From positions 310,001 through 374,000 of the forward strand of contig JAQGDQ010000169.1 of NCBI GenBank assembly GCA_030141605.1: DNA of 64,000 nucleotides. The letters run 5' to 3'. A model generated the notes under the pieces. The model ran no database searches. It had not been told where the DNA came from and saw only the letters and a program-made list of their open reading frames with translations. Each line of letters opens with the position of its first letter. Position 1 is the stretch's first letter. Origin of the DNA: Tubiluchus corallicola. Lineage: Eukaryota > Animalia > Priapulida. Of this stretch, positions 8,429 to 42,786 are shown one piece after another. The translations under genes were made by a program, and so were the position numbers.

Positions 8429-9614
8429 TGTCAGTAACAATGAATAATACGATGAGCTCAAGATATAAATGTTATTTTCAAAGACATTTCTTACTTTCTT
8501 TTTTCAAACTACATATCACGTTACACTTCCTTTGCTGTTGTTTTATTCATCATTTTCGCACTGATCTCTAGAATTTGTGTTATATCCTCAACATTGTCGC
8601 CTTGGCGTGTATTGTTCAATGTAATGATCTCAATTAGATCTCTTTTTCAAAGGAAGCATCGAAGTCTTTCACGGAATTTCTAACTTTATTGCTTTCATTT
8701 TCAGGAAAAATACAATGGAGAAAATTAAAGAGGCATTGGACAAAGTCTCAAATTTGTTTCAAAAAGTCATGACTGAATAATAATGATTATTATAGCCGTT
8801 TGGGCCGCCTTTCAATTTACTACGGTAATAACAGATCATACAGGTACGTAATTCATCCAAATTTTAAATTTTTCACAGTTTTATTAAGGGAACTTGCACA
8901 AACTAATGTATTAATATGCATTGCGGTTGGACACGTGTGAAGTGGAGCTCAAGATCATAAGAAAAAGTTCAAACTAGAGTAAAAAAACCAAATGGCTACA
9001 CATGTGTATTGTTCAACATAATAAAAATCACTGGCGGATTCATGGGTAGTAAAGTTTTATTCTTTTTTACAAGAAAAAAAAACAAAAAAAAACAGATATC
9101 TGGAAATCCATTGCGGGTTTCATCATCAGTGATGTGATTATGTAATGATTAATTATTCTATGTCCTGATTAGTAGTGTCATAATTATACTGATTATTGTT
9201 TTGGATTAATTTAAAGCATTGAAAGTGGCAGTTGCCGTCGAAACCACCGAAACTAATAAACAACATGTTAATTCCTAGAGGTTGGTTCTTTCATGTAGAA
9301 AGATTTTTATACTGATGCTCAGTAAATTTACCACATATGTTTAGGCTATTTTCATTTTCAACACTGTTGTGTAGCTGAGGCTGGACAGTTGCCCAAGAAC
9401 ACGAAAGAGCTGATTGTTTTTGTGTCGACTACACACTGAGATGATTTAATCTACTATGTTAATTTCGGTGGTTATATATAGCCAAGGCGACAATGTTGAG
9501 GATATAACACAAGTTCTAGAGATCAGTGCCAAAAATGATGAATAAAACAACAGAAATGTCTTTGAAAATAACATTAATATCTTGAGCTTATCGTATTATT
9601 GGTTGTTACTGACA
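8429..9614. repeat. Inverted repeat pair (arms about 8429-8606 and 9481-9614)
   Basis: The right arm GCCAAGGCGACAATGTTGAGGATATAACAC...TTGTTACTGACA is the near reverse complement of the left arm; the left arm carries an extra internal segment. Confidence 0.9.
8783..8843 (+). CDS. Candidate first coding exon of the receptor (signal-peptide-like [20 protein letters not shown])
   Basis: Acceptor TTTCATTTTCAG ends at 8704; first in-frame ATG after a TGA is at 8783; donor CAG|GTACGT is phase 1, matching the exon at 11612; hydrophobic N-terminus. Confidence 0.55.
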
Positions 9615-11496: not shown

Positions 11497-11528
<32 letters not shown>

Positions 11529-14500
11529 GTGATAGTGATAGTGATAGTGATAACGAAGTTGATGATAGCTTGTAGTGCTACAAAAACTTTAAATGCTGAA
11601 CATTGACGCAGAGTTATCACGGTCATGCCATGACCTGTGGTTATACCACGAAGTCCGTGAATCCGGAGAATATGCCATCGATCCGGATGAAGATGGACCA
11701 CTTTCAGCATTTACTGTCCAGTGTCTGATGGGAAGTGACGTCAGAGATGTGACAACTGTTGTACATCATATGCAAGAAGAACGGGCGAGAGTTAAAGGCT
11801 ATGAATTACAAGGTAACTATTAAAAATTATTAAAGGAAACTATTTTCATTACTATAGGCTATAGCTATTGAAAAGTTCTTACCTTCTGTGTTGCTGTCTT
11901 GTGTTTGTGCGTGCATGTAAGTTTGGATATTATAATTAACAACCAATTTAAAATCATCGTTCTAACGTTATCACTATCTCTAAACCTTTACCTCTTTTTC
12001 GGTACGTAAGACCTGTGTAATAAATTACCATTCCAATTATTGTGCGGTCATCGACTTCATTAACTTCAAAAGCAATAATGCAAAATAATTTTAATGTGTT
12101 TTAATGATGAAAAAGGCTAATAACAAGTGCAAAAATGTTTGCAAAATATAGCACTACTCGGACTTGATGACCGGTTGACGGACAGCTTGATGATCACTAA
12201 AGGCGTCATAACATTCTTACTTTTGACGTGGACGTGCCATGAATTTTTTTAGCTCATGTGGCGCAAAATTAGCCCAAGGCCAAGCTGAAGGCCTTTGGGC
12301 ACATCACGATACTTAAAGTATGATTAAACTAGACGTAAATGGAATCAATCAACAATTCATTGACCACATTACAGTAAAGAAAGTTTTGTGACATGACACA
12401 TACTCCGCATAAACGGGAGTTTCACTTACACTTACTACAAAGATACGGCTGAAATGCATTTTGAAATTGAGAGAGCACAACTTATAAAGTTTGATGGATC
12501 TTACTCTTGTATTTCATTTTCTTACTTTTACTGAAATCAGGTGCTAGAATGTGACACGCAGCACGTCTTACTGAAACATATAATAATTCAGTGTAAAAGT
12601 TCGATTTATCAATATTTATACTGTCACGTGCAAAGCAGCTGTTTTCTTACTCGCGTCGATTATCCTTGTTCAGCTAGACGACATTATTTTCGACTAAATT
12701 GTGCAGGTTATTGGATCATATAATGAAACCAATTTCAAAACTAATGAGCCTATGGAGCATAATATAAATCGACCGTCTAAACGTGCTCCCAGAGTACGAC
12801 GGTTGAATTAAGCATGGGGTCTGGAAAAATGGCTCATAGATCAATTTATGATTGTAAATTATCGTAAGAAAGTTACTCGCCGACCTTGTTATAATTGATA
12901 TTTATTTTAAACTCAGATTTATTTTGCCCAATAACAGAACAGTCCTACGTGGGTAGCTGTTAAAATATCAATTTTTTTAAACTAAGAAACAGGAAATTGG
13001 TGGACATCATGACGCTTAACTGTCAATGTTTAACAGTATGGCAAAGTTTATTATTTGTTATTAGGTAAAGGCTAAATTACAAGGTAAAGACTTGCTGCCA
13101 AACGAATTGACGCATTTACAAATCACAAATGCTGGCTGCGTCACTAATACTATCAAGATTACTATAAAAATTCTGCTCCTCAGTATAAAGTATATACTTG
13201 ACTTTATTAGTGAAATCTGTTTGCTCCAAATACATTCCTTGAAAGTGTTGTTAAGTTAATTGTTTCATAGGAAAAATGGTTAAATAATTCAAAACAGAAC
13301 CGCCTAAGGTCATGAATTTTTTTTAGCGAAATTGCTATATATAGAAAGCTAAACTGAATTCCGGAAAGGTGTCTCAATAGTCAGCTTTCACGCTGTTGCC
13401 CTCAATTGCGACAATACGGCTTCTGTGCGCAGTGACACGTTTTTCTATACATGAACCATATTTACCTTAACAGCTCTGGGGTTAGTCATATAGATGAATA
13501 TACATTTGCTGTTATATTTTGTCAATGCTTTTTGTTAAAACGTGTGCACACTCTTATAGGATCATACGAGCTAAACGTGGTTTACAGCAATGCAACATAC
13601 GAACAGGTGGAAGCCCTCATTGATATCAGTACCGCATGTGAACAGTATATCAAATGGGAGTGCAAGGTAAACATTTATTTTACCTGGTGCAAGTTAGAAG
13701 TGAATTTAGAACATTTGCTACTTTGTATTAATTCACTTTTGTTCGAATTCCCCATTCACAGCGATACGTCCTTTTATCAAAGATTGCTACATATTGAAGC
13801 AAAACTCACGTCGTATATTAAATGTCATGTGTGGAATTTACTCTTAACTCTGTAGTAGTTGTATATTTCTGGGTTTATTAATTTATTGTGTTAATGTGTG
13901 TGTTTTGTTTCTTGTTTAAATATTTAAAATGATTTGTGCTATGAACCATTAACTTGAAATAAAAAACTATATAAAAAATTAGAATCTGTCACCCTTTCAC
14001 AGCGATGCATCTCTTTAGTTTATTTACTAAAAGGATGCACAATTATTAATTACACTTTGCTTCTTGCCTTCTTCAACCTACTTTATTTTTCTGTCTCTCT
14101 CTCTCTTCATCTCTCCCTCTCTCGCTCTCTCTCTCTCCCTCTTTCTCTGTCTATTTTTCTTTCGCCTTACTCTCATTTTCTTCCCCTTTCCCCTTCTGCT
14201 CTGTCATCGTTCTGTGCGAATTATTTGCTCGCATTCTCTTATCACCGTGCGAGACATTAGTCTCCATTAGCTCTCGGTTAATCTTCAGCATAGTATTATT
14301 GACCCTCCTCGTGCATTCATTTTGCAGTGAAGGTCGACAGAAATAAAAACGATTCCCCCTTTCATTATCCGGCAAACGGAAGCCAATTGGCCTTATCAGC
14401 TACGGTTTCTGATTAACTGCTAATATAGCTATTCTCGGGCTCGATTTTATGTTATTCGTCCCATACAAATGCCCTGTTTGCATTGAACCGCACGAAATGT

Positions 14501-16066
14501 AACAGTAGATCCAATAAGATCGTTTAGAGCTGATATTGATTGTTCCATATTATGTTCGGATAATAAGCTACCATATGAGCCTATGCGCGATCGTGACCCA
14601 ATTTATGGGAATATTTCTGGGAACAATACCACAGTAAATCAACAATCTGTTACATATTTCACGCTAATTCGGACGCGGCGAAATTAAGTCAGATAAGGTA
14701 ACTTGCTGTTAACAGATGCAGTTGACGTTATTTAACATTTCCTAGGGTCTAGTAGCTGACACACTTGGGATGTAAACTTCTCGTCACGTAAGCGAACTAA
14801 TTTGCACAGTTTACTTTTCCATGTTTCGAATTTTTTAAGCCAAGATTTTCAACACAGATATGCAATTGAATCACTTTTGTTGGTTTCGTTCATCGCCAAG
14901 GTTTCATTTTTTCAAATATTTCAGGGCACCATGTTTGGCTTCTGGTATGACGAGACTGACTCTTGGTGGGTGGGACGGAACGGCATCACTCACAAATATT
15001 GGGGCGGAGCAGCTCCGGGCAGCGAGGCTTGCGGATGCCATCCACATTGTCATCCTACATACCGAAACAGCACATGTAATTGTGATGCAAATGACGCAAT
15101 GAGATGGTTGTATGATGATGGACTTTTGCTAGATAAAGACAACCTTCCAGTGATCCAGTTAAGATTTGGAGACACTGGGCAGACAAATGAGGAGGGTTAT
15201 CATACACTTGGTCCATTAAAGTGCAGAACAATACATCATCAAGGTAAGAAAATACAATTACCAGGTGTGTATTATCTTTACAAATGCGTAAACAAATAAA
15301 ATGAAATGACTTACTGTTTCAGCGTTATAGAGACGTGAATAACATGATCATGGAAGAAAAAAAATCAGGATTTCTAGGCTGCCTCAACACATAGTATATA
15401 GTGGACATGCACAGTTCACCGTTTCACTGCATTATTTGTAGCTTGTGTTGTGTCATGTGGGCGAATTATCATGCTGACAAACTTATGTTAGAGACACAAG
15501 TAAAAATGACTAGTTTCGGGATGAGGACATGCTGCGAATTATTAGTTTCTTTTGTGTCCCACTCTGTTCTGTGATTTGGCTATTGATTTTATACCTTTGT
15601 GTTTCGCTTTAGTGTTTTTATTTACTGTGATTGTGTGCTTTCTCTACGTGCTCGTATCCGTTTTAGTGAGATAATTTTGTGTTTATAAGATGAACGAGCC
15701 GCTCACTTTCCGCCAAAAATTAGCGTTAGTAATTCCATGTGATTTTTCTTTCGCATGAGGATAAACTACAGTGATATTTTGAAAGGTCGCGGTTTTTCTT
15801 TTTTCCTCGTTTTTTAGTTGTGGGATTTTTTTAAATTCACTATTTAGTAATGTATTCAGTTAAGGTGTGTCCTTTACGACAGAATTAAGTGAAACCGAAC
15901 CAAGTCAGCAGTGAATAGGTGACCACCAGGAAAACTGTTTGCAGGCAGTATCATCTGTCATCTTGTTCCGCTACTGAGAAAAGACGTTTGTTCATCCGAA
16001 TAGGGCTAAGACACCTTTGCTGAATCAGTCTCTCTCTTTCTCTCTCTCTCTTTCTTTCTTTATTTC

Positions 16067-16121
<55 letters not shown>

Positions 16122-16536
16122 GTGTGTCTCTCTCTCTTTCTTTCTCTTCCTGTCTGATCTCAAAAGATTAGCACTAAAACTTAGATGGGTTTTGGTCCTA
16201 CCACAAACATCTAGTTGCCTGCAAATGGACTGACGAGAGTCGACCTTTCAAAGCTTAAAATGACACTCAATGCTAAAGGGCAATGCGTTACAAAATCGGG
16301 TTTGTGGCTATTTGCATGTTAATGCACTCTAATGCGTCTATGGCCTTTACTAGTGTACATTCCTTACTGCTTTTAGCCATGCATGTTTGAGACATTAGCT
16401 CGAGGCTTTCATTTTAGCGTGCTATGCTAGCTACTAGCTACATCTCCCTTCAAATAATGATAATGACGATGACAAGGACGAGGATGATTATAACTTTTTG
16501 TTTTGGTTCTGATGATAGTAAATAAAATTCTTTCTT

Positions 16537-16577
<41 letters not shown>

Positions 16578-19500
16578 CTCTCCTAAGCAATTTTAACTAT
16601 TTTTTACTTTAGTAATAACATTTTTTCAGAGGTCTTTATGGGCACGCTCACGGCGCCTACAGGCTTCAGCTCTCCTGGGTTCTACAAAACATATCCACCT
16701 CCATGGTCTCGCTACACCTGGTCGATTCTCATACCTGCGAATATGATAATGGAGTTGACTTTTCCTGTATATGACATTATGTACGCAGAATCCTACAGCT
16801 CACTGCCTGGATGCTCTTCAGCTATATCCGTGTCTTACACATCCAGCAGAATTCTACATCTCATTGAAAAGAAAGCTGATATGGCTCCGTATTTTATTTC
16901 TGATGGTTCTGAAACTTATCTGAACGTGACCTTAACCACATGTACCCGGATAAACGAGCAAACGTATAAAGGTTTTCAAGCAGTCGTAAGAGGGGCAGGT
17001 GAGTGGATAGTTATTATAAACTTAATGTCAAAGCTCAATGTCATTAATAATAATGAATTTACGAACGAGAGTTAATTCAGTTTTGATACTAAATTTGAAA
17101 AACTGAATGTGTGAAAAAGTTGTAAACAACCTGGATTTGAATCAGGGACCTGCTTTTTACAAGCACACGCCTTTGACCACTAAGCCACCGTACGTCGATG
17201 GTCAATGTAGTCTAAAGTTTATCCATCACAGTTGGCCAACCAAATTCAGCATTTCCTATGTTAGGTCCTTCACATTAGAGTAATTCTAATTAAATTATTA
17301 TTTTATCTTAATTAGTTTTGAGCCTGTAATTGATTGCGGGTTCGTACCATCAGGTGACTGTGTATTTATAGATCGGTAGGCTTGCCTTCATTAGAACCGC
17401 CACTGTTAAAATATTTTAGACCGCCGATTGAAATGACCTAGGAACTAAAAATAGCCCTGCTTTCCTTAAATATAATAATAACATCACATTATATAGCGAG
17501 ACTTGACGTTATTTTAAATTTACGCGATTTGTTAACTCTGCTTTGAAAAAATTCCTACGAGCTGCAACAACTGTTGTGATAAATTGATATTATCGTGATT
17601 TACCACAAGTAAGACGAACATTATTAAGAGGAAAAAATGTCAATTCAAAACGCCGAACTATATGGCCAGTCTGAATATTTGAAGCCATAAGTTGCTGATT
17701 GTTGCTTTCTTTATATTTTTAGAATGTGCCGCATGTAGCGTTGATGTAGACCCCCAGGGAGTGACCATGTGCACGGCAAGATGCGGAATCATCACGTCTT
17801 TCAGATATCCCTATTCACAGTTCTCTTCACTAAATCAAATTTATAACCAATCCTGGATCATAAGAGTGTCTCATAACAAGGCAATAAAAATGAAATTTAA
17901 TGATTTCGATATTTACGGCAACGATAACAACCTTTGTGACTCTGACGTTGGTTCCTTCCGGGTGTATAGTGGTGATGTCGCTGAGAAGTCGAACTTGATT
18001 GGCATTTTTTGTAATTATAACAAGCAGGGAATTATACATGTTCCATCAAGTGACGCCTTACTTTTCTTTAGTGTGAAACTGAAAAGCCTGGGAACTGGAA
18101 GAGGATTTCATCTGACATATGACGCTATTGACAGGGATCAGCTGCCAGAAAATGGCAAGTGAAATATTACAGCTTTTCGTTTCTGTTAATTTTCTTGAAA
18201 TGGACAGACAAAAACACAATAAAACCTGACGTGTTTCACAGATAAATCTATAATTATAATAATATTAAAGATAATTTGATGGCAAATGACACCAACGATG
18301 AAGATGACATTGGCAATAATGACGACTACTGCATCACAAATTTTCCAACAAGAAAAAAGTCTTAATATTTGGACCGTAGTCTAAAGCTTGCGTAGAATTT
18401 TAAATTTAATAACTGACAATTTCTATTTAGTTGATTTCAGTCAACTGGAAAATGTTGCCGAAGGAAAGCCGGCCAGTCAAAGTTCAACTTTTGAAAGAGG
18501 AAGCGCTGACCTTGCTGTAGATGGCAGAAGTTATGTCGAATTAGGAGCTGCTACGTGTGCGCACACTAACTTCGAAGCGGACCCCTGGTGGCGGGTTGAC
18601 TTGCAAGAAAGACATGAGATATACGGTGTTGAAATAGAAGCTCAACCAGAAGATAAGGCAAGTTAAATTTTATGCCATAACTACAGAGCCAAAATCGATT
18701 TAACTAATTATAATTAAACGTAGCTTAGTAACCTAATGCTCGCAATATTTGCTACAGTAGTTACATGACAGAGACCACAAATAAATAATTCATTCTTTTA
18801 TGTCACGTTATGCTTTAAATTTATATATCCAAGATACATTAATATATCTTATTATTTTCGCATTAATATCATTATTTGTTAGGTAACACCAAAGGCTAAA
18901 AGTCGCTGCTGCCATTTAAGTTATAGACAAAGAACTAAAACAGATGCTGATTTTTTTCTATTACTTTTCAGGTAGGAAGTGAAAGGCAAAGCTGGCCTCG
19001 CGGTAAGTATGCTTTGCCAATGCCGTGGACCGGATGTCCTAGTTCTGAACGGTTTAAATGGAAGACGGGTTTTTGGTTTCAAAATCTTGAATACAAAGTT
19101 CCATATGACAGCAAAGTTAGCGACTGGTCTGCGCAGATAAAACTCAAAGGACCACTCACATTCGACGGCCACCTGCACAATTTTTGTGTGAAAGCTGAAG
19201 ATGACGACAATGCCACTGAAACAACAGGAAGAGAATGGCCAGCTGGCAGCTACTGCATTTTTAAGTATGGAGATGCATGTCCCTCTGGTTTTGGTAGTGG
19301 TTCAATCCAGATGATTGACAGAGATGTAGGTGTCCATGACCGACCAAAAGGGTTTGTTGCAGCTGGTGTGTACGATCGTAACACCCAGTTTCATTTTTGC
19401 TGTCGTCGGGATGGAAGTCCTCATGTTCCTATCGATCTGCCAACTGAGAGACCATTTTATTTGTTTCCTTTTGGAGGGCCGGAATGTCAAAAGGTCACTG

Positions 19501-27153: not shown

Positions 27154-27226
<73 letters not shown>

Positions 27227-30200: not shown

Positions 30201-33200
30201 AAAGCAAAAAGAACTGCCTGCAGACTACAAATTGGCTTCGTTGTGAGAATGGTCATTATGTACATAAGAATGTTACATGCTTGTATGGTTTTGATCAACA
30301 TGGATACAACATAGGATGCACTGACGTATCTCACTTACGGGATTGCGGTACGTTGGTTTGAAAATTTAGTTGGTCATTGTCGCTGAAATGTGGAATGCAG
30401 GATTGTGAAACCATCTTTAATGTCTTGATATTTAAGTAATCTTCAGGGGTAGGAAGGCAATACGTGTAATTTCGAGAGGCAGGAAGACAATTTGTGTAAT
30501 TTACAGAGGCAAGAAGACAATACGTGTAATTTACAGAGGCAAGAAAGCAATACCAGTAATACCAGTACAAATAGATAGTCGCTTGAATGCTAAAAGTACT
30601 TTTTAAAGAATGGTACTTGCAAAGAGGCAGAGCAGAGAAATGCTAGCCTGATATTATTTGAAATTGGACTCCTACCAGCCCTTTACGACAACCTTCAATG
30701 TTAATAGCAACAAGACCATTAACTTGTTTTGTTTCTTTCATTTGGTAGTCTACACTAAACTACCTGCATACAGACTACCAGTACAGACTAAAAACACTAC
30801 TAAGGGTTTGATAAGTTGTAAAGGAATGTATTTTAAATTTATTAAAACAGTCGGAAACAAAATTCATACCCAATTTGTCACCAACCAAATACTCTTTTTT
30901 ACAAGAAAGTTTTATTTTTATGCGTGTGCTTGTTTGTGTCTATTCTATCTTTTTTCACTTTGCTTCTTTGAGTTTCTCTCAAAGTCTCACTAAATTTTAT
31001 GTTTTCAGGAACATTTTCTTGCCCGGACGAGTATCTAAAATGTCCCGAGTCATACTGCATACCTGTCCATAATGTCTGTGATGGAAGGTGGGACTGTCCT
31101 AATGGACATGACGAGATCAATTGTAACGAAACATTTACCTGTCCTGGACTATATAAATGTCACGAACAGACTTACTGTGTACCAATGTTTAAAATTTGTG
31201 ACGGCATCAGAGACTGCCCACTGGGAGATGATGAATTTTCGTGTGGTATGTAATCCTTTGCTTTTTGTTACTTATGTGGAGGTTTTGCATTCTCAACATT
31301 TTTTTGTAATTCTGCCACAGAAACACTTCTATATTTAAAGTTTTTTCTTGTACATTAGATGTAAGAGGTAATGCTAGCGATGAACAAATACAGACTGTAA
31401 TTTTAATTAAGGAAGTTATATGGGCTCTAGAACGTAATTGTTTTGATTTTTTGACAGGAATGAGTTGTACGCCATATTAACACATCTTACTTTCACTTAA
31501 TTGTATATATTCGCATTGCTTGCTAATCTTGTTAATTAATGTTTTTTTGCTTGTTGATCTGTTTGTTTATTTGATGTGATTGTACCACGAGTACGAATAA
31601 AAATATTATAGTTTTGTATTAACTTGTTAATTCATTTTTGTTGATACACATAAAATTGCAAATAAACGTCTAGAGCTACTCTTGTTTCTAGACCTATTTT
31701 TGATAATTTAATGGCTTAGAGCCTCAGTTGTAGGCTATAGTGTTGTGTAGTAGTGCAACTTATCATGGTTGCTAAAACAGTACTTCAGGAAAAAAGATAC
31801 CTGAAAGTAAAAATCATTTTAGTTGTCTTAACTGCATGCATGACAATGTTTCGTTTCTCACCGGTAGACTTGGAGTGTCCAGCAGAATGCTCGTGCTCTC
31901 TTCTTTCTGTAGCTTGCAGAAGCAGGGATTTGGTAACTCTTCCATCAAATGTGACCTTACTAGCCAGAAAATTGTAAGTTTTGCCTGTTTTAGTTTTGTA
32001 ATTTGTAAATGTTGTCTTTTAACTTTGGTGTATAAGGGTTTGTGGGTTACGTTATGATGTAGAAATTATGCGCCATATTGTATGGTTGTTTATTGAAGAC
32101 GAAAAGTGTAAATTTATAGACAGAGTAGCAATGTAAGGAATGTTCATGAACATCCGCGCCAGTGTCGCGCGCACTGTTTCTAGCCGACCAATCAAAGAAT
32201 AACATCCGACATCTTGTCGAAAATCATCTATTTGCTTGCTGTCGCTGGATGTGAAAACTCACCCTCTCGCCAACCACTACTAAAGTAGGATGGTAATTTT
32301 TGTGTGAACTTTAGGTTTAGGCACTTTTAACATTGCAGTGTTTTTTCAGTAATGTGAAATATTTATATAATATTATAATGTACCACTGTATATTGTTGAA
32401 ACTGCTTTTGGTATAATTTTGTAATGTATTATAGATTGCAAACAATGCTTTATTATGTTTGTAATCATAGATGCAAGTCAATACTGTGATTAGTACAGTC
32501 ATGTATTTGGTGGGACGGTATTTGGGTGTGCCCCACCTTTTTTGCTTTGCTATATTGATTGAATTATCATTTTAATAAATGACCTCATTTTATCAACTAA
32601 TTTCATTCTTGGTGCTTATGCGGAAAACTAGCCAGGTTCAACCAATTTTACCTTTAGATCGGTTTTATGAACATTAGCTTACAAAAATAATATTTATCGG
32701 TGCACTATAGCATCTTTAAGTATTTATTTTATTTCAGAGACTTGAGCCATAACCGCATTAATGTCAGTATTATCGACCTACACGATTTCGTTTATCTGGG
32801 CGAGCTGTAAGTCATTTTTTGGTTTCTTCAGTGTGAGATTATTGTTAGTTTTTAAATACTGGCGGGTAGGGGTTATGTAACTATATTCATTTGAAGTACG
32901 TAACATTTGATTTTGGTGATATTATGTTTAAAGCGTAGGACATAGAGGCAGAGTTAAGAAGCGCCAGGTCTGGCAAGTAAGCAGATTAGTGATCGTGGGA
33001 AAATTGCTTTTAGATTTTAACTTAGCATATTGCCTTTGTATATTTTTTAATGGTAGGGAGGATGAAAGCGAATCTAAACGCGACTAACTCGACTAACTGT
33101 CGGTGCAGTGTCTTACCTGAGATGATTATGTGTGTTAATAAGAAATTTCTCATTTTATAAAAAAATCCAACGCGCCTTTTTCTCGTCGTGCTGCAAACTC

Positions 33201-36200
33201 TAGAGCTGCTTTCCCTTGACCTACCCCAGTGGAAACAAATTGTCGTCGCACGCTACATTCTGTGTGCGTGTACAAACGTTGAAGATCAAGTGGTACTCAA
33301 AATAGACAAATATTTTCCTTTACTTTCAGGGATTTATCATATAACAGTATAGTGGAAATCCCTTCGAAAAAGTTTCACTATCTTCGAAATTTATTTTTAC
33401 TGTGAGTATATTCGAAAATGTTCTAATTAGGAATTACTTTGTAGGTTTCCGTGTAACTGTTCATGTTAGCGATTGGGAATTTTGATTCATATGAGTTTGA
33501 TATAATGTAAATTGTAAAAAATATTAATGAAACTATTTTGTAACTCTCTGTTGAGTTCTTAAAGTATTAATAATGTTTGTGTTTTATTGAATTTTAACAG
33601 AGATCTTCGCTGGAATAAATTGGTAGTTCTCCATGAAGGTGCATTTGATGGATTAATACGGCTAAAAATTCTGTAAGTGGAAGATTTAACGAGAAATTTT
33701 TTTTATTACTATTTTTTAAAATCTACTGCCTTTGCTTTAATTGTTTGGTTTCTTATCTTTTAGATTTCTGCTAAAGTTTACGGGTAAGCAAAAGCGTGTC
33801 TGCCAAATTTTCTATGCTACTAACTAAATAATTGATAACGCTTTGTTTTGCAGTTTATTAAGTGGAAATCCTAAGCTTGCTGACATTGAACCTGGCGCTT
33901 TTGAGGGCTTACATCATCTGAGCGATTTGTAAGTAGTTGTTTACCACACCAAATTGATAGCGTATGGCCGTATTCTTGTCAGTAATATCATAGGCTAATT
34001 AATATTTTTTATATCGCCATTACACATTTTCAATATGTGGTACGAACAATTTTTAAAAAATTGAAACCAATTTCAGTATTTTATAAGTATCCAGTATAAC
34101 AACATTCGTCAGTTAAATATAAATGGTTTAATGTGGACTTCATACTGGCTGTTTAGAACTTTATGCTGACTCAGCCTGACTAATTTGAATAAATAAGTTT
34201 AAGCAGTTTAAGCTGCAAGGCTTCCACACGTTGTGAAGAAGTTTGTGCTCACTAATTTGAATAAGCTGATTTGACTTACACAGACTTCTAAATCTTGAGT
34301 GGTAGTCTGTGTTCACTAATTCGTATAAGCTGATTTATGGTACAAAGATTTCTGGAAATATTATGTAAATGTCTATGTTCACTGATTTGAATAAACTGAT
34401 TAGGCTATATGGACTTCTACAGGGTTGTGCAGGAGTACCTCGGAGAAGAACGTTTTAAAGTCATGCAAATCTTTTCGGGCCCTTGCCCCACTGGCGGATA
34501 AGGCCCTTAGGCTCTTAGCGGGTCCTGGGCACAACAGTTAGGGTCTGGGAGAGCACTGTGGAGGTGTTTAGTTAGTTCGAAACTTTTGAATGCCTATTTT
34601 CAATTACATAAAATATGATTTCTGGACTGCAAAGTTCACAACCTTTTCATTTTATTACGTTTTTATGATACTACATTAACAACTTTGAACAAACATATCA
34701 AGCTTAACAATTGTCATGCAGAAACAATTTTTATAATTTTGGTCTTTTTGTGACCTTTGTTCTTAGAACCTGAAGTACCTCTTAAATTTAAATTTTATTG
34801 ATGTTCAGGCATTTAGCAGCTCATCATCTACGCTTATTAAAAACAAGCACATTCCGTGGATTAGAAGACCTGCAAAGCCTGTAAGTTTATTATCAGCAAG
34901 AAATTAAATATAGGCTTAATAGCTTAAATCTGTCAAATAATCTGTCATTTGTGATGGTAATGATATAAATTAAATGACATTTCCCAAAACAATGTTTATA
35001 AGCTGCCTTATTTGTTGGTTATTAAAATCTTAATGTCAATATTATTATTAATGTTAATGAAAATCCACAATTAACTGAATTCTGATAACAAACTTGAAAG
35101 GAAGAAATTCACAAGGTAGGTTAAACTTGGTCAAAATAAAAAAAATAATCTAATTACAGCTAGAATCACTCTAGTGTAATCTTACATCGGAAATGCTGAA
35201 TTCGGTTGGCTCCTATAAGAGATGAACTTTGAACTGCCTTAATCACTAAGGAAAACAGTGGCCTAGTCATATAAGGTATCTGTTTTGTAAGCAGATGTTT
35301 CTGGTTCAAATCCAAGGTGTATTCAAACTTTTTCACATTTCTTGTCTTTTTAGTTTGATATCAAAATTTAATTAATTGTGGGTTTGTACCATCATCCTTT
35401 TTCAGTTCTGAATTCTGCTCTGTCAGTTTTTTGCTCTGTGCGTTAATCTGTCATTAGGTCGAATTTCATCTAATATTTAATGATTAATCCAACTTTACAC
35501 TATATTCTTCTGCGATCTTTGTCACACATTTTCTTACAAAACATGTGGCAACTCCTTCAAGTTAACATGTTTGACTCACTCCGACTTACTATTATTTTAG
35601 GAACTTGTCTGGAAACAACATTGGCGTCATTGAGAAAGGAGCTCTGAGTGAACTGAAAAATGTCAAACACTTGTAAGTACAAAATGGTAAAAATTTACCT
35701 TTCAGTGGTTTTTCACTTAAAAAGCATTTTATTCCTCAGTTTAAGCATGTGAGGTATGCCTAGCTAGAAATAGGCTAGAATCTGCTTTGCAATATAAAAC
35801 TATAATATCAAAGGTAGTAAATTAGCAGTATTATTTTAGAAATAACTGTGTTTCGACGTATAAAAGCTCATTCGTTTTTTTTGCTTTTCAGAGATATTAG
35901 AGGAAATGATATCAGTGATTTTTCTGAAGACATTTTTCGAAGTTTAGCTTCGCTGGAGTATTTGTAAGTCGACACTGGATCGAAAACTAAAAATTTAACA
36001 CATTGCCAGTGCTTGGATTTTATCATAATCAATGAAAAGCCCAACGAGAATTACATCAGTTATCATTAAGATTAAAATGAATACCAATTGTCTCTATCTG
36101 TGGACTTTATTAAAAGTTAGATGTTTTCTGATGTGCAGTTCTAGTTATCAAAATCGTCTAGAATTATTTATATTGTGATACCAGTTCAAATTAGTGCCTT

Positions 36201-38565
36201 TACATTCGTGTAGGATGATAAATGTACAAATTACTTTGAATTTGTACAGTTTCTTGGGACGCATGTAAAATTTAACTATGTTGTTCTTAAAAAACATCAG
36301 TAGTACTTAACAGAATATATTTCTAAAACAACTCACCCTGATACCATGATATTTCTATGATATTCTAAAGTAATATAGATGGTGCCAAAAGGAGGCATCT
36401 TGTTGTTTATTTGGCGTATCTTTGTGTATTTGCTGAACATTTTAAAAATTGTTATCGTTTATATTAGGTTCCAGTTTTGTAATCCTATGCCTGCCATTTT
36501 ATTATTTCTGTACTTACTTTCTTTGATTTTCAGCTCTTTTTCGCCTTTTGTTTTACAGATACAGTGACTCATTCAAATTCTGCTGTTTAGCAAAATCTCA
36601 CATCAGCTTTGACAACTGTCTTCCTCAAGCGGATGAATTCTCATCTTGTGAAGATCTAATGAGCAATTATACGTTACGTCTTTCTCTTTGGCTACTTGGC
36701 GCCATCGCTTTCTTTGGAAATTTCTTTGTTGTAGTTTGGAGGTTCAAAACTAAGGAAGCCAACAAGATCAGTTCCTTATTGATTTTGAGTTTGGGGTGTG
36801 CGGACTTCCTTATGGGAATATACCTTCTGATAATCGCTGGTGTTGATTTGTACTACAGGGGGCGCTACATAGCGTATGCGGATCAATGGAAAAGAAGTGC
36901 GTTGTGTAAAATTGCTGGTTTTATATCAACGTTGGCAACAGAAGTCGGTGTATTTACATTGACTTTGATAACAGTTGACAGACTAATATGTCTAGCTTTC
37001 CAATTCCGAATAAGACGGTTCAACACTAAACAAGTGTATATTTTGCTTTCATTGGCATGGACCATTGCCTGTGTTTTGGCCATAATTCCATTTTTAATCA
37101 CTAGTTATTTTCATGGCCAGTTCTTTGCAAGATCCGGTGTTTGTCTCGCACTGCATATCACTGCAGAGAAGCATCCTGGTTGGGAGTATGCTGTCGCTGT
37201 GTTCTTGTGTATCAATTTTCTAGCATTTATATTTATAATTGTATCGTATGTGTATATGTATATTACTATTCGCCAGACTACAAGAGCTGTACAGAGAATC
37301 TCTATACAGAAATCAAAAGAATTGACTGTTGGCCGACAGATGGCGGTGATTGTATTAACGAACTTTTGCTGCTGGATGCCAATCATCATCATGGGTTTAT
37401 TGGCTCTAAGTGGTGCTGTAGTCATACCAGGTAGGCTAATTGGTTTACGTATTCCTTCCTATTCATATTGATGCCTGGGTCTGTTAAGATTCTTTTAAGA
37501 TTTTTGAATACATTTCGGGAAACTGCAAGACGGAATCTAGATCTCAAAAGCAAGGCCTTTTCGACAAGCTGTTTGTGCGCGAGCCGCATGACCAGAGACT
37601 GTGTCAGTATCGATGTTACTCTTCAAAGATAAGCCACTAAACAGGTGGAAGCAAGAGTTTTGGATGTACAGGTATACACGTTCTCCCTCTACGAGCGTAA
37701 CAGCCAAAGTTTACAAGTGATATTGTCAAAAGCGAGTATCGAACCCAGGTGCCCATTCGTCACTCACTTAAAGTGCGAACATAAGCGATTTCAATCATTC
37801 TTTGTGAAACTAGTCCAATTTTGATATTAGAAATGACCTGCTGGGTTGAAGATTCAAACCATCTTCCGCAGTCACTGTGTTTCAAAGCGACAAGTGTATT
37901 TCACAAAACTGATTTATTTTCCATCAAATTTTCCTGTTTTTGAAGAAAAGTGGTAAAAACCACATTCCGGGACTAACTTTAGAGTGATATCTTTCTTAGC
38001 AATCTGATTACTATAAATTCCAGTCTTCCACACATGTGCTATTAGTCCATAGTTATCCAGCTAATTGTATGATGTGCTGACTAGTTATCTTATTAATTGG
38101 ATGAAATCTTATTAAGAATGTTTTATAGGAGAAGTATATGCATGGACTGCGGTATTTGTCTTGCCTCTAAACTCTGCTACGAATCCAATATTATACACCA
38201 TATCATCTGTAGACAAGGATACAGTGCGACGGACTCTCTTCTGTGGAGCTGGTCATAAGTCGTCAAAATTTCACAGCACTATTGGCAATGGTATGTACCA
38301 AATAATAATAGTTTGTACCAAACAGTATCAGCAACAGTTCACACATATTTCTTCTTCGTTTTTCTTTATTCTAGTTTCTTTTCTGCAATTCTCCGCAGGT
38401 TTTAGCTTTTTTTCTTGATCGCTTTTGGAAATCGACAATGAAAAATATTTAATTTTTGCGTGGTAATAGATTGATAAAATATTTCACTTTTTAAAAACAT
38501 GGTTAAACATAAAAACCTACTGCATCTGCTTTCTTGCTACCTTTTACACACGTTCTTACTCTCTC

Positions 38566-38617: not shown

Positions 38618-38708
<91 letters not shown>

Positions 38709-38832
38709 GTCTATCTGTCTATCTATCCATCCATCCATCCATCCATCCATCCATCCATCCATCCATCCATCCATCCATCCATCCATCCATCCATCCATCC
38801 ATCCATCCATCCATCCATCCATCCATCCATCC

Positions 38833-38863
<31 letters not shown>

Positions 38864-41800
38864 CATCCATCCATCCATCCATCCATCCATCCATCCATCC
38901 ATCCATCCATCCATCCATCCATCCATCCATCCATCCATCCATCCATCTATCTATCTTTCTCTTCTATTTCTCTCTTCCTGCCCTGTCTATTTATTCGTCT
39001 ATCCTTTAACTAAACAAAAACGTACAAAATTGACCAAGTTGGAAGAAGGATGAGGAATACACTGCTTTTGTGAATTGCAACCCACAGTTCCCAGCTATTT
39101 GACTAGATTAGATTGTCTTAGAATAACTCAATGCATGACATAAATTAGACGTTTTCATCGTAGACCACAACCTTTGTGTGCCACGTGTTGGTTAGCTAAG
39201 TAGGGTCGTCAGCATGCCAAGTATTAGTTTAATAGAGCTTTGGCCATTGTGTTAGAATTATCATTTTCATCATGCTTAAAGTTTTAGTTAGTTTGCATGA
39301 CATGTGTTTTGCACAGAGGCATTCTACATGAAGAGGCTTAATTCTAGTCCCCTTCCTTCTCCACGACGATTTTCAACAGCTAGCACACATCTAAAAGGAA
39401 ATGGAATCTACAATGGTAAGATGAGAATTTGTATTTGTTGCATGTTACTTGTTCGTTATTTTATTATTTTTGCACGAATTGTTGCTTTCGTACTTTCCAA
39501 ACTAACTTGTGTATTATAAATGTTTTTGCTTAATACAGCGTGGTTGAAATACAGTGACACATTTTCGTTGTGAAGCATCTATTAAGTCTTTCAGGGCAAG
39601 AAATATATCTTTTGGTAGATAAGTTCTAAAAATTTTCTGAGGTATGTTGGATAAAAAGATTTATTTTCTGTACTTTTTAATTTAGTAGATTTCAGTTGAA
39701 AGTAAGGCAATTAACTTTTTCATGAACGAAAATTTGACTTAAATGAAAACTTATTATTTTACGATGAAGATACTGATCTGCTATCGTAAGTTTGCTAAGT
39801 AACATGTTACGATTACTCCTAGACTTGCAAACTCAGTGTGCGAATTGATGAGTGCTAAGTAACTCCGTATATTTTGCAAAGAAAGTTCACCTAGTCATGT
39901 AATATGTTCTCCCTTTGTGCAAGTGTCTCCTATCTGCGGATTCTGGACATTTGTATGATTCTAAAATACTACTGACACCTTACACTTTCAAGTAAGATGC
40001 CCCAGCCCTTTTCAAGACATGGAAGTATGCTTGAGGGCTATGAACACACTTTAATGGGTTCTTTGTGGTACGAAGTTTTAGCGCAGCTTTAAAGAAAACA
40101 AATATCTTTCATAACGGTATATTAATAATTAGAAGCAAATGTTTATTGGTGTATTTACTTTTACAAGTGCAGAAACATTTTTCATAAACATAAGCCTTTT
40201 TTCAGTAGGCACTGCAGAAAATAATTAGTAACACAAAACAGCAAACTCAAATCAATGAAATGTGACAAATGTGTTCTTGGTATTTCGTTGTTCTAAATGT
40301 GATGCTTTGTGTCATTAGTGTCTGCATTGTCTACTGAAAAGGTAGATGACTTGTAAATAGACTAATAAACATTTGTTTCTAATTACCACATATGAAAGAT
40401 GTTTGTTTTCTTCAAAACTCTAGCACGTAAGCTTGGCAAAAATAAATATCATTAATTCTTTTTATTATTATTGTTTATAATTTCTTGTGATGTACAAAAA
40501 ACTGTTATATCCGCTATCAATTTCTTCCTTTTACGTTACTGCCTTCTTCTTACAACTCCGCTAAGTGGAAAAAATGTTTTGTTTCATCTCTTCTTTTCAA
40601 ATTGCTATAATATTTGTATTGCCAACATTTACAGCATAAAAGCAATACTTCAAATCAAGCAATACTTAATACTCACAATACAAATTGTGACAACGATGTT
40701 GTAAATAATATGTTACAAACACCATCGTGGAGTATCAAATATGACACAAATGTTCAAATAATATGACATTAATTGATAACCCAAGAGCAGATTGATAGTT
40801 CCGCACCTTTTTGTAATTATATATAAATTTATTGTTTATTTTGAAATGCTATTCTCGCTTTTTTAAAAGATGCCGCGTGCATTTGATTTTACAGTGCCTT
40901 ATTTTTCACGTTTTGCAAAATACGATTCCACAATGTGCTAGTAAAATTTTTCTTCATCTCCTTTCTAGGTGCCTCATTTTATGAACGGCAAGCTAAATGT
41001 AACAATTACTCCATGGCCGAAGTAGGTGCAGTGGCCGATTCTGGTGGTTCAGCGCCTAGGAAGAAAGTGGTTTTCAATCATCGTGCTCCTCATGGTTACA
41101 TGTCACTCGCTCAGTATCTCAAAGAAACGAGACCTTTAGACATTGAAGAAATACGCTACATCACTAAAGTCATTTGCGAAGTTCTGCATCAAGTTCATAA
41201 AGCCGGATATGCACTAGGACAACTGGAACCAGACACTGTGTTCCTATCAAGACAGGTACATTGTAGAGCGCTAACTTCGAAGAAAAGTTCCTGTAAAAAA
41301 TAGTGCCTATACAATAATGTTGACTTTTTTATATACATGTACGCTCTGAAACTTGTATGCATTGGAAATGGTTATCATTGCTAACATTAAACATGCTTTG
41401 TTGCGCCAGGCTTTGAAAAATAAGAGACAAGTTCTGCAGGACACAAACTCAAGGCAACAGTTGAACTATCATACTAGCCTTTCTCGAATATACCCACTAA
41501 ACTTGTCCCCATTCTTCTAGTCTATTCCACTCATGGCCGAGTCAGTGGTTTGATTTATGCGGGCTGCTAGTCAATGGTTATAGGATGCTTATGGTTATTT
41601 GCGCGCTACATCTTTATCTGTATTTTTAAAAGTGTAAGTGTTGCTGGAAGTATCTGTGAATAGATCTTCTGGTATGTTGTTGTCTCATATATGAGGGATG
41701 GTAAATAAATGACGTCTCTGCCTCTGTCCATTTTAAAAAAGCTCTTATGTGGGCTGACCAATAGACATGTGAGTGTGCAGGTGAAAATCACGTAATGGTG

Positions 41801-42786
41801 CATGTGACGGGTAAGAAAAGGCTTAATCTTCCTGTATGGGTAGAACAAACTGGAGCAGAGTTGGAAGCAGATCTAGAACTAATTTTTATCAAGAGAGACG
41901 GAGAACATTAATTTATATAAACTTGTCCCCATTCTTCTAGTCTGTTCCACTCATGGCCGAGTCAGTGGTTTGATTTATGCGGGCTGCTAAAGTCAATGGT
42001 TATAGGATGCTTATGGTTATTTGCGCGCTACATCTTTATCTGTATTTTTAAAAGTGTAAGTGTTGCTGGAAGTATCTGTGAATAGATCTTCTGGTATGTT
42101 GTTGTCTCATATATGAGGGATGGTAAATAAATGACGTCTCTGCCTCTGTCCATTTTAAAAAAGCTCTTATGTGGGCTGACCAATAGACATGTGAGTGTGC
42201 AGGTGAAAATCACGTAATGGTGCATGTGACGGGTAAGAAAAGGCTTAATCTTCCTGTATGGGTAGAACAAACTGGAGCAGAGTTGGAAGCAGATCTAGAA
42301 CTAATTTTTATCAAGAGAGACGGAGAACATTAATTTTATAATATTAACTATGTTTGTGTGTTCTTGGGATTTTTCCCCCAAACATTTTCTTTTTGCAAGT
42401 ACAGAAAACCTGCTCACGGATTCTATGCAATAGTCAGACACATTTACAAAGCAGCCTGTCAGTCGTATTCTTGTACTTGTATTCAGTGGAAGAATGATCT
42501 CTTGAATAGTCTAGCTGCCCGTAGGCCTATACTATTTTCAAGCTTTAAGTTTCCACAATATTTAATCTAATAATTATACCTTAAATTTCAGAATGGGGAA
42601 CTTCATGTTTACGTGCCAGATCTGAACGCCTATAAAACAGGGATCTATCCTGCTCAAAAACACAACGACGACACAGCACAGGACATGGAAGATCTGGCTA
42701 ACATTGTTAAACGAATGTTGAGGGCTTATAAACTGCAGAATAGATTACATAGATCCGTACCAGATGTGAACGATTCCCGCTTATGA
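8783..42786 (+). CDS. GRL101-like LDLa/LRR G-protein-coupled receptor (LGR type C) with a giant lectin/CUB mosaic ectodomain, about 2747 aa, 36 coding exons
   Basis: Phase-consistent exons: 8783-8843, 11612-11812, 13560-13666, 14925-15243, 16630-16998, 17723-18154, 18431-18657, 18972-19656, 20244-20513, 21246-21406, 21852-22004, 22281-22464, 22899-23267, 24386-24808, 25150-25365, 25855-26097, 26282-26452, 27531-27644, 28002-28121, 28436-28558, 29142-29819, 30192-30347, 31009-31245, 31868-31973, 32738-32806, 33330-33401, 33601-33672, 33854-33928, 34809-34880, 35601-35672, 35892-35963, 36559-37430, 38129-38290, 39317-39415, 40969-41255, 42592-42786. Total 8244 nt, divisible by 3. The LDLa-LRR-hinge (FKFCC...[10 protein letters not shown])-7TM layout is the GRL101/RXFP class. 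The first exon is the least certain. Confidence 0.85.
11612..15243 (+). CDS. Receptor exons 2-4: Caspr/neurexin-IV-type fibrinogen-like module 1
   Basis: [68 protein letters not shown] match the Caspr fibrinogen-like region as I recognise it; GT-AG boundaries. Confidence 0.85.
16630..18154 (+). CDS. Receptor exons 5-6: two CUB domains
   Basis: FSSPGF..YP..W.I..LTF..YDI..GFQA and CG.ITS..YP..W.I..F.DFDI..C..G.FC..GRGF.LTY; each lies on one phase 1-1 exon. Confidence 0.8.
17040..17352 (-). mobile_element. Non-autonomous repeat family 1 with internal tRNA-like segment (copy 1)
   Basis: The reverse complement contains GGTGGCTTAGTGG..GATTCAAATCC (A/B-box-like) and shares blocks with 35056-35390 (GCCAACC.AATTCAGCATTT, AACTTTTTCACA). 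Confidence 0.6.
18431..20513 (+). CDS. Receptor exons 7-9: F-type lectin (fucolectin/FTP) domain interrupted by an apextrin C-terminal (ApeC) domain
   Basis: Exon 7 [30 protein letters not shown]; exon 8 [51 protein letters not shown]; exon 9 [22 protein letters not shown]. Confidence 0.85.
19843..20146. repeat. (AATAT)n microsatellite with an internal inverted (ATATT)n tract
   Basis: About 300 bp; orientation flips at about 19887-19914. Confidence 0.97.
21246..22464 (+). CDS. Receptor exons 10-12: discoidin / coagulation factor 5/8 type C domain
   Basis: [61 protein letters not shown]. Confidence 0.88.
22899..26097 (+). CDS. Receptor exons 13-16: two CUB domains and a C-type lectin domain
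   Basis: [15 protein letters not shown] and I.S.NYP.PY..N..C.W.I..FDVE..C..D.V..G.YC; CTL: CPNGW..F..CY..W..AE..C..GGHLVSI..YIGLTD..EG.F.WSD..QPNGG..EDC..WHDVPC..YICK. Confidence 0.9.
23455..23635. repeat. Degenerate (ATC)n repeat
   Basis: Direct reading; source of poly-H, poly-I and poly-M ORFs. Confidence 0.9.
26282..31245 (+). CDS. Receptor exons 17-23: four LDLa repeats, second Caspr-type fibrinogen-like module, three further LDLa repeats
   Basis: F.C.NG.C....CDG..DC.DGSDE..C repeats; single exon 29142-29819 has [27 protein letters not shown]; atypical LDLa C.YGFD..G..GC.D.SHL..C then CPGLYKC, as seen in GRL101-type receptors. Confidence 0.9.
27154..27250. repeat. (CAT)n(CTT)n microsatellite
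   Basis: Direct reading. Confidence 0.97.
30447..30546. repeat. 30-bp minisatellite, about 3 units
   Basis: GAGGCARGAAGACAATWYGTGTAATTTACA repeated. Confidence 0.85.
31868..35963 (+). CDS. Receptor exons 24-31: LRRNT and seven leucine-rich repeats
   Basis: CPAECSC..V.C; seven phase 2-2 exons of 69-75 nt, each encoding LxLxxNxI-type repeats (e.g. [22 protein letters not shown]). Confidence 0.92.
34179..34420. repeat. Degenerate minisatellite, about 4 units of 63-72 bp
   Basis: Core TGTTCACTAATTTGAATAAGCTGATT recurs near 34179, 34251, 34314 and 34381. Confidence 0.8.
35056..35390 (+). mobile_element. Non-autonomous repeat family 1 (copy 2), MITE-like with imperfect ~50-bp terminal inverted repeats
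   Basis: 35056-35108 is an imperfect reverse complement of 35337-35390; internal AGTGGCCTAG..GGTTCAAATCC at 35257-35313. Confidence 0.6.
36559..38290 (+). CDS. Receptor exons 32-33: hinge and rhodopsin-class 7TM domain
   Basis: [17 protein letters not shown] (TM1), L..ADFLMG.YL (TM2), DRL (DRY position), CCWMP (TM6), [13 protein letters not shown] (NPxxY). Confidence 0.97.
37560..37800 (-). mobile_element. tRNA-derived SINE-like family 2 (copy 1)
   Basis: Reverse complement CCTGGGTTCGATACTCGC..GTAAACTTTGGCTGTT..GTAGAGGGA..TGGCTTATCT is shared with 51822-52010. Confidence 0.55.
38558..38955. repeat. Compound (CT)n(CTGT)n(CCAT)n(CTAT)n microsatellite
   Basis: Direct reading. Confidence 0.98.
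39317..42786 (+). CDS. Receptor exons 34-36: cytoplasmic tail with a Ser-rich segment, degenerate protein-kinase-like C-lobe and C-terminal DSRL
   Basis: Phase-compatible GT-AG exons 39317-39415, 40969-41255, 42592-42786 (TGA at 42784-42786); AATAAA near 43273. Confidence 0.75.
41498..42340. repeat. Near-perfect ~420-bp tandem duplication in the last intron of the receptor gene
   Basis: 41498-41917 is repeated at 41918-42340 with very few differences (TCTATTCC vs TCTGTTCC; a 2-nt indel GCTAG vs GCTAAAG); the ORF track shows two identical 80-aa ORFs. Confidence 0.97.

What the first reader, a model, noticed from the sequence alone, without database searches (positions are those of the whole stretch)
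8783..42786. ~2750-aa GPCR carrying a whole panel of pattern-recognition domains on one chain
Seen in sequence: 36 exons join in one frame from signal peptide to stop, giving FBG(Caspr-type)-CUB-CUB-FTP[ApeC]-F5/8C-CUB-CUB-CTL-LDLa x4-FBG-LDLa x3-LRRNT-LRR x7-7TM-kinase-like tail. Established: Lymnaea GRL101 has only LDLa+LRR+7TM; ApeC, F-type lectin, C-type lectin and fibrinogen-like domains are invertebrate glycan or microbe-binding modules. Inference: a multi-ligand glycan or microbe sensor wired directly to G-protein signalling (innate immune, settlement or matrix sensing). I do not know this full architecture from a characterised protein.
Basis: partly seen in the sequence, partly recalled or inferred. 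Interest (0 to 1): 0.85.

Follow-up and report, generated by a model that had tools for sequence, protein, structure and literature searches.

The report
Giant orphan GPCR with half-kinase tail
This is one 36-exon reading frame for a 2,747-residue GRL101-type G-protein-coupled receptor whose long chain of lectin-like and adhesion-like modules is already in databases for ticks, spiders, scorpions and mites but is uncharacterised; it likely signals when large extracellular glycoproteins bind rather than reading a panel of microbes, and it carries a predicted dead half-kinase tail that I did not find described.

Summary
Thirty-six exons (8783-42786) join into one 2,747-aa frame with canonical splice sites, three of them GC-AG. 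All named domains are supported, CUB1 and the fibrinogen-like pair only weakly.

The architecture is not unique. Thirteen of 235 fetched proteins, all named ones chelicerate, carry all 16 modules at 44-47% identity. The nearest relative is a partial Priapulus caudatus model (64%). Bivalve and nemertean relatives share most of the backbone. It is a conserved, uncharacterised GRL101/type C2 LGR lineage.

The 'panel of pattern-recognition domains' reading is only partly supported. ApeC sits inside the F-type lectin where the fucose-binding loop should be. The fibrinogen-like domains resemble COLFI/neurexin-4 modules. The C-type lectin keeps a sugar-site motif.

Two features I did not find in print: the nested lectin[ApeC] module, and a folded kinase C-lobe tail lacking N-lobe and catalytic motifs, traceable to sea anemone and amphioxus. 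Exon 1 is provisional, and RNA support is one short junction. The ligand is unknown.

The parts
8783..8843 (+). Exon 1, putative signal peptide (provisional)
   Evidence: Best donor and hydrophobicity score among candidates; no homolog support; stop variant in one X1 contig
11612..15243 (+). Exons 2-4 (11612-11812, 13560-13666, 14925-15243): fibrinogen-like/COLFI-type domain 1
   Evidence: Weak COLFI hit; mean 54% identity to 13 chelicerate proteins; homologous to domain 2
16630..18154 (+). Exons 5-6 (16630-16998, 17723-18154): divergent CUB-like domain and CUB; exon 6 has a GC donor
   Evidence: Pfam CUB on exon 6 only; exon 5 weak profile hits to CUBs
18431..18657 (+). Exon 7: N-terminal half of the F-type lectin domain; GC donor
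   Evidence: Matches the N-half of FBP32 3cqo, E 7e-22
18972..19656 (+). Exon 8: ApeC domain inserted into the F-type lectin
   Evidence: PF16977 E 1e-57; 8 Cys, three DXED motifs degenerate; same nesting in relatives
20244..20513 (+). Exon 9: C-terminal half of the F-type lectin domain
   Evidence: Matches the C-end of FBP32 3cqo, E 8e-8; both halves close into one lectin barrel in the P0001 model
21246..22464 (+). Exons 10-12 (21246-21406, 21852-22004, 22281-22464): F5/8 type C (discoidin) domain
   Evidence: Pfam pieces; full hit in ortholog P0169
22899..24808 (+). Exons 13-14 (22899-23267, 24386-24808): two CUB domains
   Evidence: Pfam E 2e-12 and 7e-26
25150..26097 (+). Exons 15-16 (25150-25365 with GC donor, 25855-26097): C-type lectin domain
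   Evidence: Pfam halves; QPN/WHD here, QPD/WHD in 13 of 13 relatives
26282..28558 (+). Exons 17-20 (26282-26452, 27531-27644, 28002-28121, 28436-28558): four LDLa modules
   Evidence: Pfam on each; exon 16-17 junction seen as a 19-letter loose end in run X2
29142..29819 (+). Exon 21: internal fibrinogen-like/COLFI-type domain 2
   Evidence: Atlas neighbours are COLFI/neurexin-4-like clusters; same position in mollusc, nemertean and Priapulus relatives
30192..31245 (+). Exons 22-23 (30192-30347, 31009-31245): one atypical and two canonical LDLa modules
   Evidence: Pfam two stretches; atypical module found in 103 sequences
31868..35963 (+). Exons 24-31 (31868-31973, 32738-32806, 33330-33401, 33601-33672, 33854-33928, 34809-34880, 35601-35672, 35892-35963): LRRNT and seven LRRs
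   Evidence: LRRNT Pfam; LRR pattern and phase-2 exons; aligned to orthologs
36559..38290 (+). Exons 32-33 (36559-37430, 38129-38290): hinge and rhodopsin-type 7TM
   Evidence: 7tm_1; best solved match RXFP1 7tmw E 1e-51; hinge, ECL2 and D-R motifs conserved
39317..39415 (+). Exon 34: unconserved cytoplasmic linker (least tested internal exon)
   Evidence: In frame with good splice sites; 1-6 identities to relatives
40969..42786 (+). Exons 35-36 (40969-41255, 42592-42786): kinase C-lobe-like tail and stop
   Evidence: Tail profile scores the window at 98 bits; relative's tail folds at pLDDT 92 and matches kinase folds

Best explanation
One 36-exon frame encodes a conserved GRL101-type (type C2 LGR) receptor that likely binds large endogenous extracellular glycoproteins or matrix through its module chain, would pass that binding through the LDLa-LRR-hinge region to switch on G-protein signalling, and carries a predicted catalytically dead half-kinase tail that likely serves as a docking scaffold. 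Shown: the reading frame, the domain order, orthologs with the same order, an intact receptor core. Predicted from models of relatives: ApeC nested in a closed F-type lectin barrel; the tail as a kinase C-lobe. Inferred by analogy with RXFP1 and the glycoprotein-hormone receptors (recalled mechanism): activation by a built-in agonist (hinge decapeptide or ECL2), probably towards Gs/cAMP. Inferred and untested: that the ligand is endogenous; the C-type lectin (galactose-type motif) and ApeC are the most likely glycan contacts, and the split F-lectin is a stalk. Confidence is about 0.93 for the single-gene and orthology part; the number given is for the whole mechanism.
For: Single chain: 13 of 235 stored proteins hold all 16 modules, 11 in exact order and 2 with a shortened first domain; NCBI lists isoforms for the tick gene; one X2 contig runs from exon 16 into exon 17 in frame. 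Stability: the tree follows the species tree, (window, Priapulus) then (Strigamia, chelicerates), sister to a lophotrochozoan clade (quick tree, SH-aLRT 97-99); every module keeps 34-57% identity to chelicerates; X2 differences are synonymous in 12 of 17 codons. Module types: CUB plus discoidin gives neuropilins as top fold hits; fibrinogen-like domains are COLFI/neurexin-4-like. Receptor core: nearest solved structures are RXFP1, TSHR, FSHR, LHCGR; hinge S-x-C-x-D-L, ECL2 R-S-G-x-C-L-A-x-H and D-R-L are invariant in 13 of 13. Tail: all rows listed in both fold searches are kinase-fold proteins, best Z 10.0, rmsd 3.6 over 103 residues; HRD-like motif in 1 and DFG in 2 of 83 tail hits; most linkers after NPxxY are 27-76 aa, too short for a full N-lobe.
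Against: No ligand, expression or signalling data exist in my calls. All ApeC domains tested so far bind peptidoglycan, including ones with degenerate DXED motifs (PMC9585378 section 27 and passages; PMC8361754 passages). CTL-bearing GRL101 genes sit in a schistosome-resistance locus of Biomphalaria (PMC12297450). Conservation does not exclude sensing of invariant microbial glycans. Copy number in this genome could not be checked. The lectin[ApeC] model is only moderate (pLDDT 56). Foldseek E-values for the tail are above 0.001.
Confidence: 0.42

Rival explanations
1. One reading: a pattern-recognition GPCR in which ApeC binds peptidoglycan and the C-type lectin binds galactose-type glycans of microbes or parasites, triggering G-protein signalling in blood cells or epithelia.
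For: ApeC keeps all 8 cysteines and tested ApeC domains bind Lys-type peptidoglycan. QPD in 49 of 49 regex matches, WHD in 44. Biomphalaria CTL-GRL101 cluster in a resistance locus. Bivalve relatives also carry ApeC, in another position and no closer to the window's ApeC than an unrelated apextrin is, which fits separate recruitment of the same module.
Against: The fucose site is replaced by the insertion; fibrinogen-like domains are not ficolin-like; species-tree orthology and even conservation; the Biomphalaria link is association only and its validated variant lies in a neighbouring non-GRL101 gene.
Confidence: 0.3
2. A peptide-hormone receptor: an IGF- or insulin-like peptide binds the LRR and LDLa modules as proposed for GRL101, and the N-terminal chain only anchors or localises the receptor.
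For: RXFP1 is the nearest solved receptor. Veenstra posits GRL101 as an IGF receptor (PMC8286064 passages).
Against: That hypothesis is untested and concerns LDLa-only GRL101, which falls outside this clade. About 1,470 residues of N-terminal modules are kept at 34-54% identity.
Confidence: 0.15
3. A contact chemoreceptor for external glycans (mucus, biofilm, prey or host surface) on sensory epithelia.
For: GRL101-annotated genes are enriched in snail tentacles (PMC6573481 passage) and starfish sensory tentacles (PMC6267866 passages).
Against: Those genes were not shown to be this orthogroup. The same architecture persists from a likely marine worm to land ticks, spiders and parasitic mites.
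Confidence: 0.09
4. Two neighbouring genes (a secreted lectin/CUB protein and an LDLa-LRR-7TM receptor) wrongly read as one.
For: The Priapulus and Strigamia models start mid-way. No long read spans the gene. RNA support is one 19-letter loose end, below the tool's 31-letter bridging rule.
Against: No stop or second signal peptide inside; introns in the joining region are 184-1,118 nt; 13 full-length single-chain relatives, two of them on Logan contigs of about 8.5 kb, barely longer than their coding sequence.
Confidence: 0.04

Closest known systems
Lymnaea GRL101 / type C2 LGRs (orphan; PMC4079206, PMC8660763, PMC11863921 passages)
   Same: Several LDLa modules, LRRs, short hinge, rhodopsin 7TM nearest to relaxin receptors; no known ligand
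   Different: About 1,470 extra N-terminal residues, a fibrinogen-like domain splitting the LDLa array, and a half-kinase tail; LDLa-only GRL101 from Biomphalaria pfeifferi falls outside this clade and has no tail hit
Uncharacterised chelicerate orthologs (Dermacentor LOC126532264, Rhipicephalus LOC119172579, Caerostris, Argiope, Parasteatoda, Larinioides, Centruroides, Halotydeus, Oppia) and partial Priapulus XP_014664050 and Strigamia T1J3N1
   Same: Same module order; 44-47% identity over the whole length for the 13 complete ones; 64% to Priapulus in the C-terminal part
   Different: This copy extends the complete architecture outside arthropods; it has a longer linker before the tail and QPN for QPD
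Mollusc ACP 'Group 9' (OWF42800.1; PMC9585378) and oyster XP_048738543
   Same: ApeC, F-lectin-like, discoidin, CUB, CTL, LDLa-fibrinogen-like-LDLa, 7TM and half-kinase tail on one chain
   Different: ApeC is N-terminal and the F-lectin-like domain is uninterrupted; no N-terminal fibrinogen-like-CUB-CUB block; common origin of the two ApeC domains is not shown
Biomphalaria SudRes2 CTL-LDLa-LRR GRL101 cluster (PMC12297450)
   Same: C-type lectin joined to an LDLa-LRR-7TM receptor; immune role proposed
   Different: A tandem, polymorphic cluster of 12 genes described with CTL, LDLa and LRR only; no ApeC, CUB or kinase-like tail in the passages read
RXFP1 and glycoprotein-hormone receptors
   Same: Hinge, ECL2 and 7TM sequence similarity
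   Different: They bind peptide or glycoprotein hormones, have one or no LDLa, and (recalled) no kinase-like tail

Membership tests
Type C2 LGR (GRL101 type) | More than one LDLa module | tested here: met
   Six canonical plus one atypical; definition from PMC8660763
Type C2 LGR (GRL101 type) | LRR array, hinge and rhodopsin 7TM nearest to relaxin receptors | tested here: met
Type C2 LGR (GRL101 type) | One-to-one orthology with Lymnaea GRL101 itself | not tested
   Lymnaea sequence not in my trees; Biomphalaria 'GRL101' P0221 lies outside the clade
Type C2 LGR (GRL101 type) | G-protein coupling and ligand | not testable with these tools
   D-R-L, CWMP and NPILY motifs present
F-type lectin | F-type barrel fold | tested here: met
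   Both halves match FBP32; model residues 117-525 align to 1k12 at Z 12.2, rmsd 3.5, 139 residues
F-type lectin | Fucose triad His...Arg-x-Asp...Arg (motif recalled) | tested here: not met
   His present in the window but in 0 of 13 relatives; no Arg-x-Asp; ApeC inserted at that loop
ApeC domain | About 200 aa with eight cysteines | tested here: met
ApeC domain | Three DXED motifs | tested here: not met
   All degenerate at the positions I assigned by eye; ACPs lacking them still bind microbes
Sugar-binding C-type lectin | EPN/QPD plus WND calcium site | tested here: inconclusive
   QPN and WHD here; QPD and WHD in 13 of 13 relatives
Ficolin/FREP fibrinogen-type recognition domain | Full Fibrinogen_C match | tested here: not met
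   Only profile positions 4-51 of 221, below cut-off; nearest Atlas clusters COLFI/neurexin-4
Protein kinase | Kinase C-lobe fold | tested here: met
   Pfam kinase hits above cut-off in Saccoglossus, Glandiceps and amphioxus tails
Protein kinase | ATP-binding N-lobe, HRD and DFG | tested here: not met
   Unconserved linker; HRD-like 1 of 83, DFG 2 of 83; partial N-lobe only in Nematostella and amphioxus

The most novel reading that the evidence does not exclude
An ancient class A GPCR-kinase fusion, present from cnidarians on, was pared down to a dead C-lobe scaffold, and in ecdysozoans an F-type lectin swapped its fucose loop for a whole peptidoglycan-binding ApeC domain; the result would be a conserved GPCR that senses bacterial cell wall directly in ticks, spiders, mites and priapulids and signals through both G proteins and a half-kinase adaptor.
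Probability: 0.2. Interest if true: 0.85.

Novelty: new variant of a known kind. Interest (0 to 1): 0.5.

Why it matters
GRL101-type receptors are a long-standing orphan class. This lineage is conserved across protostomes and sits unstudied in ticks and mites. It offers two concrete, testable oddities: a domain inserted into a lectin's binding loop, and a half-kinase fused to a rhodopsin-type GPCR tail. If the immune reading held, it would be a rare direct link from a pattern-recognition domain to G proteins in disease vectors. The architecture itself is not new to databases, which lowers the surprise.

Tried and rejected
Whole genome: none held, so copy number was not checked. Sequencing runs: no RNA holder listed. 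X1 behaves as genomic contigs of this species that run across exon-intron borders; X2 (RNA is a guess) gave two exonic contigs in 24000-38400 and none on exons in 8700-19800.

Candidate exon 30048-30119 rejected. GT alternatives to two GC donors score near zero (the matrix was trained on this gene's own sites). A scan for missed internal exons gave one weak 36-nt candidate, 28607-28642, not pursued.

The ApeC-exon search could only see 400-2,000 aa proteins and gave 2 hits. PDB sequence searches with the ApeC and internal fibrinogen-like exons gave nothing significant. Foldseek on the lectin[ApeC] model gave diffuse multi-domain hits. The careful tree did not finish; the quick tree is used.

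No insect or crustacean protein with this architecture appeared; the searches are limited, so this is not proof of loss.

Literature: ApeC+GPCR (20 of 80 listed, none relevant), ApeC+apextrin+chelicerat, GRL101+pseudokinase, GRL101+kinase-like domain, GRL101+Priapulus. Li et al. 2021, the ApeC architecture survey that notes arachnid ACPs, is not held and may picture this architecture. Figure 1B of PMC9585378 could not be seen. Three look-ups of earlier findings returned nothing.
Full report
Observation. The window is AT-rich animal DNA with many microsatellites. Reading 8000-44000 I placed the exons by hand and checked them by script. After two coordinate slips were fixed, a 37-exon chain gave 2,771 aa and the same chain without 30048-30119 gave 2,747 aa, each with one terminal stop. 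The other frames hold 150 and 207 stops. Three donors are GC; the nearby GT alternatives for two of them score near zero.

Domains. Pfam on 28 exon translations confirms three CUB, ApeC, discoidin pieces, a two-exon C-type lectin, six LDLa, LRRNT and 7tm_1. CUB1 and the two fibrinogen-like domains are weak; the two fibrinogen-like domains are homologous to each other and nearest to COLFI/neurexin-4-like clusters (recognition value below the reliable range). Exon 1 is the weak point: best of the candidates, but unsupported by relatives, bracketed by inverted repeats, and read with a stop at codon 7 in one X1 contig.

One gene or two. No RNA holder was listed. X1 contigs cross exon-intron borders at 99% or better and support the assembly in pieces. 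One X2 contig, about 94% identical, ends at the exon 16 donor and continues with three extra letters and then 16 letters that fit the start of exon 17 with two mismatches, the best place in the window. That is weak, in-frame support for the lectin-to-LDLa junction. The stronger evidence is comparative. The 7TM exon found 4,980 representatives; the best long one is a Dermacentor protein with nearly the same module order. Searching with its longest isoform gave 46 proteins, 20 with both ApeC and 7tm_1, from ticks, spiders, a scorpion and mites. Of 235 stored proteins, isoforms included, 13 hold all 16 modules, at 44-47% identity; eight species are named among them.

Relationships. In a quick tree of 27 rows (one or two per lineage; most isoforms and unnamed rows left out) the window pairs with Priapulus caudatus (64%), then Strigamia and chelicerates, with a lophotrochozoan sister clade; a FastTree of 89 7TM regions agrees on the arthropod grouping. 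The source is therefore likely a priapulid or close relative (inference). Oyster, scallop, abalone, limpet and Lineus relatives keep the fibrinogen-like domain inside the LDLa array, and oyster keeps the same F-lectin-to-discoidin junction, so the backbone likely predates the protostome split. Hemichordate, echinoderm, amphioxus and Nematostella relatives have other N-terminal modules.

The nested lectin. Exon 7 matches the first half and exon 9 the end of fish F-lectin FBP32. A model of relative P0001 (pLDDT 56) aligns residues 117-525 to eel agglutinin 1k12 at Z 12.2, spanning the ApeC insert. The insert falls where the recalled Arg-x-Asp...Arg fucose loop lies; the fucose His is absent in 13 of 13 relatives. 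The barrel is thus likely a stalk for ApeC. ApeC keeps eight cysteines and lacks DXED motifs, which does not rule out binding. In bivalves ApeC is N-terminal and no closer to this one than an apextrin's ApeC is, so shared origin is open. The C-type lectin keeps QPD/WHD in relatives and QPN/WHD here.

Receptor core and tail. The nearest solved receptor is RXFP1, then TSHR, FSHR and LHCGR, with invariant hinge, ECL2 and D-R-L motifs. The tail profile hits 85 of 215 stored proteins in round two. A relative's tail folds at pLDDT 92; every listed match is a kinase-fold protein (E 0.005 at best, Z 10.0), and Atlas neighbours with a family are mostly kinases. It is only the C-lobe core, without HRD or DFG, and with a linker mostly too short for an N-lobe. 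Amphioxus and Nematostella tails match Pkinase from profile position 34-37, so they keep part of the N-lobe. This suggests an old GPCR-kinase fusion that decayed to a scaffold (inference).

Mechanism. I favour an endogenous glycoprotein or matrix ligand captured by the module chain and relayed through LDLa-LRR-hinge to a built-in agonist (0.42), because of species-tree orthology, even conservation, neuropilin- and neurexin-like modules and the lost fucose site. Microbial sensing (0.30), an insulin-like peptide ligand (0.15), contact chemosensing (0.09) and a split gene (0.04) are the rivals. None is tested by function.

Literature seen. Passages: PMC8660763, PMC9585378 (section 27; supplement hits), PMC12297450, PMC11863921, PMC4079206 (which set the tail aside as poorly conserved), PMC6573481, PMC11521371, PMC8361754, PMC8286064, PMC6267866. 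Ten searches showed no description of the full architecture, the nesting or the tail in the listings and passages I read. The library is open-access only, and Li et al. 2021 was not held.

Verdict. Real, correctly read, and a member of a known orphan receptor kind whose giant form is already in databases. The nested module and half-kinase tail make it a new variant worth a focused study. Interest 0.5.

Noticed in passing
window 18155, 18658, 25366: Three of 35 introns start with GC, a high share for one gene.
   Followed up: partly
window 8429-9614: Inverted repeats (63 nt 94%, 25 nt 96%, 54 nt 96%) bracket a 1.2 kb stretch that contains exon 1; possibly a non-autonomous DNA element. One X1 contig reads a stop in exon 1.
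   Followed up: partly
window 8715-8780: A 21-codon upstream ORF, just after an AG acceptor at 8704, ends two bases before the proposed start codon.
   Followed up: no
window 9700-10900: High-copy repeat in intron 1: X1 depth up to about 7,000 against 10-20 nearby; also present in X2.
   Followed up: no
window 41498-42341: Two tandem copies of a 422 bp unit, 99% identical, in the last intron; recent duplication or assembly slip.
   Followed up: no
window 45527-51449 (+): Downstream cuticlin/ZP-domain gene: weak CUT_N and ZP-C hits.
   Followed up: partly
window 58761-59724 (-): MFS transporter exons (MFS_1); vesicular amine transporter-like by recall.
   Followed up: partly
P0064 and P0187-P0196: A mite branch including Fragariocoptes has a shortened form (CUB-CTL-LDLa-LRR-7TM-tail) without the ApeC half.
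   Followed up: partly
P0151 residues 2093-2211; P0076 residues 3061-3166: Amphioxus and Nematostella GRL101-like receptors keep part of the kinase N-lobe in the tail.
   Followed up: partly
P0158 (Dermacentor LOC126532264 isoforms): These seven models lose the second lectin half and the discoidin domain, which other Dermacentor models have; likely an annotation or assembly fault.
   Followed up: no
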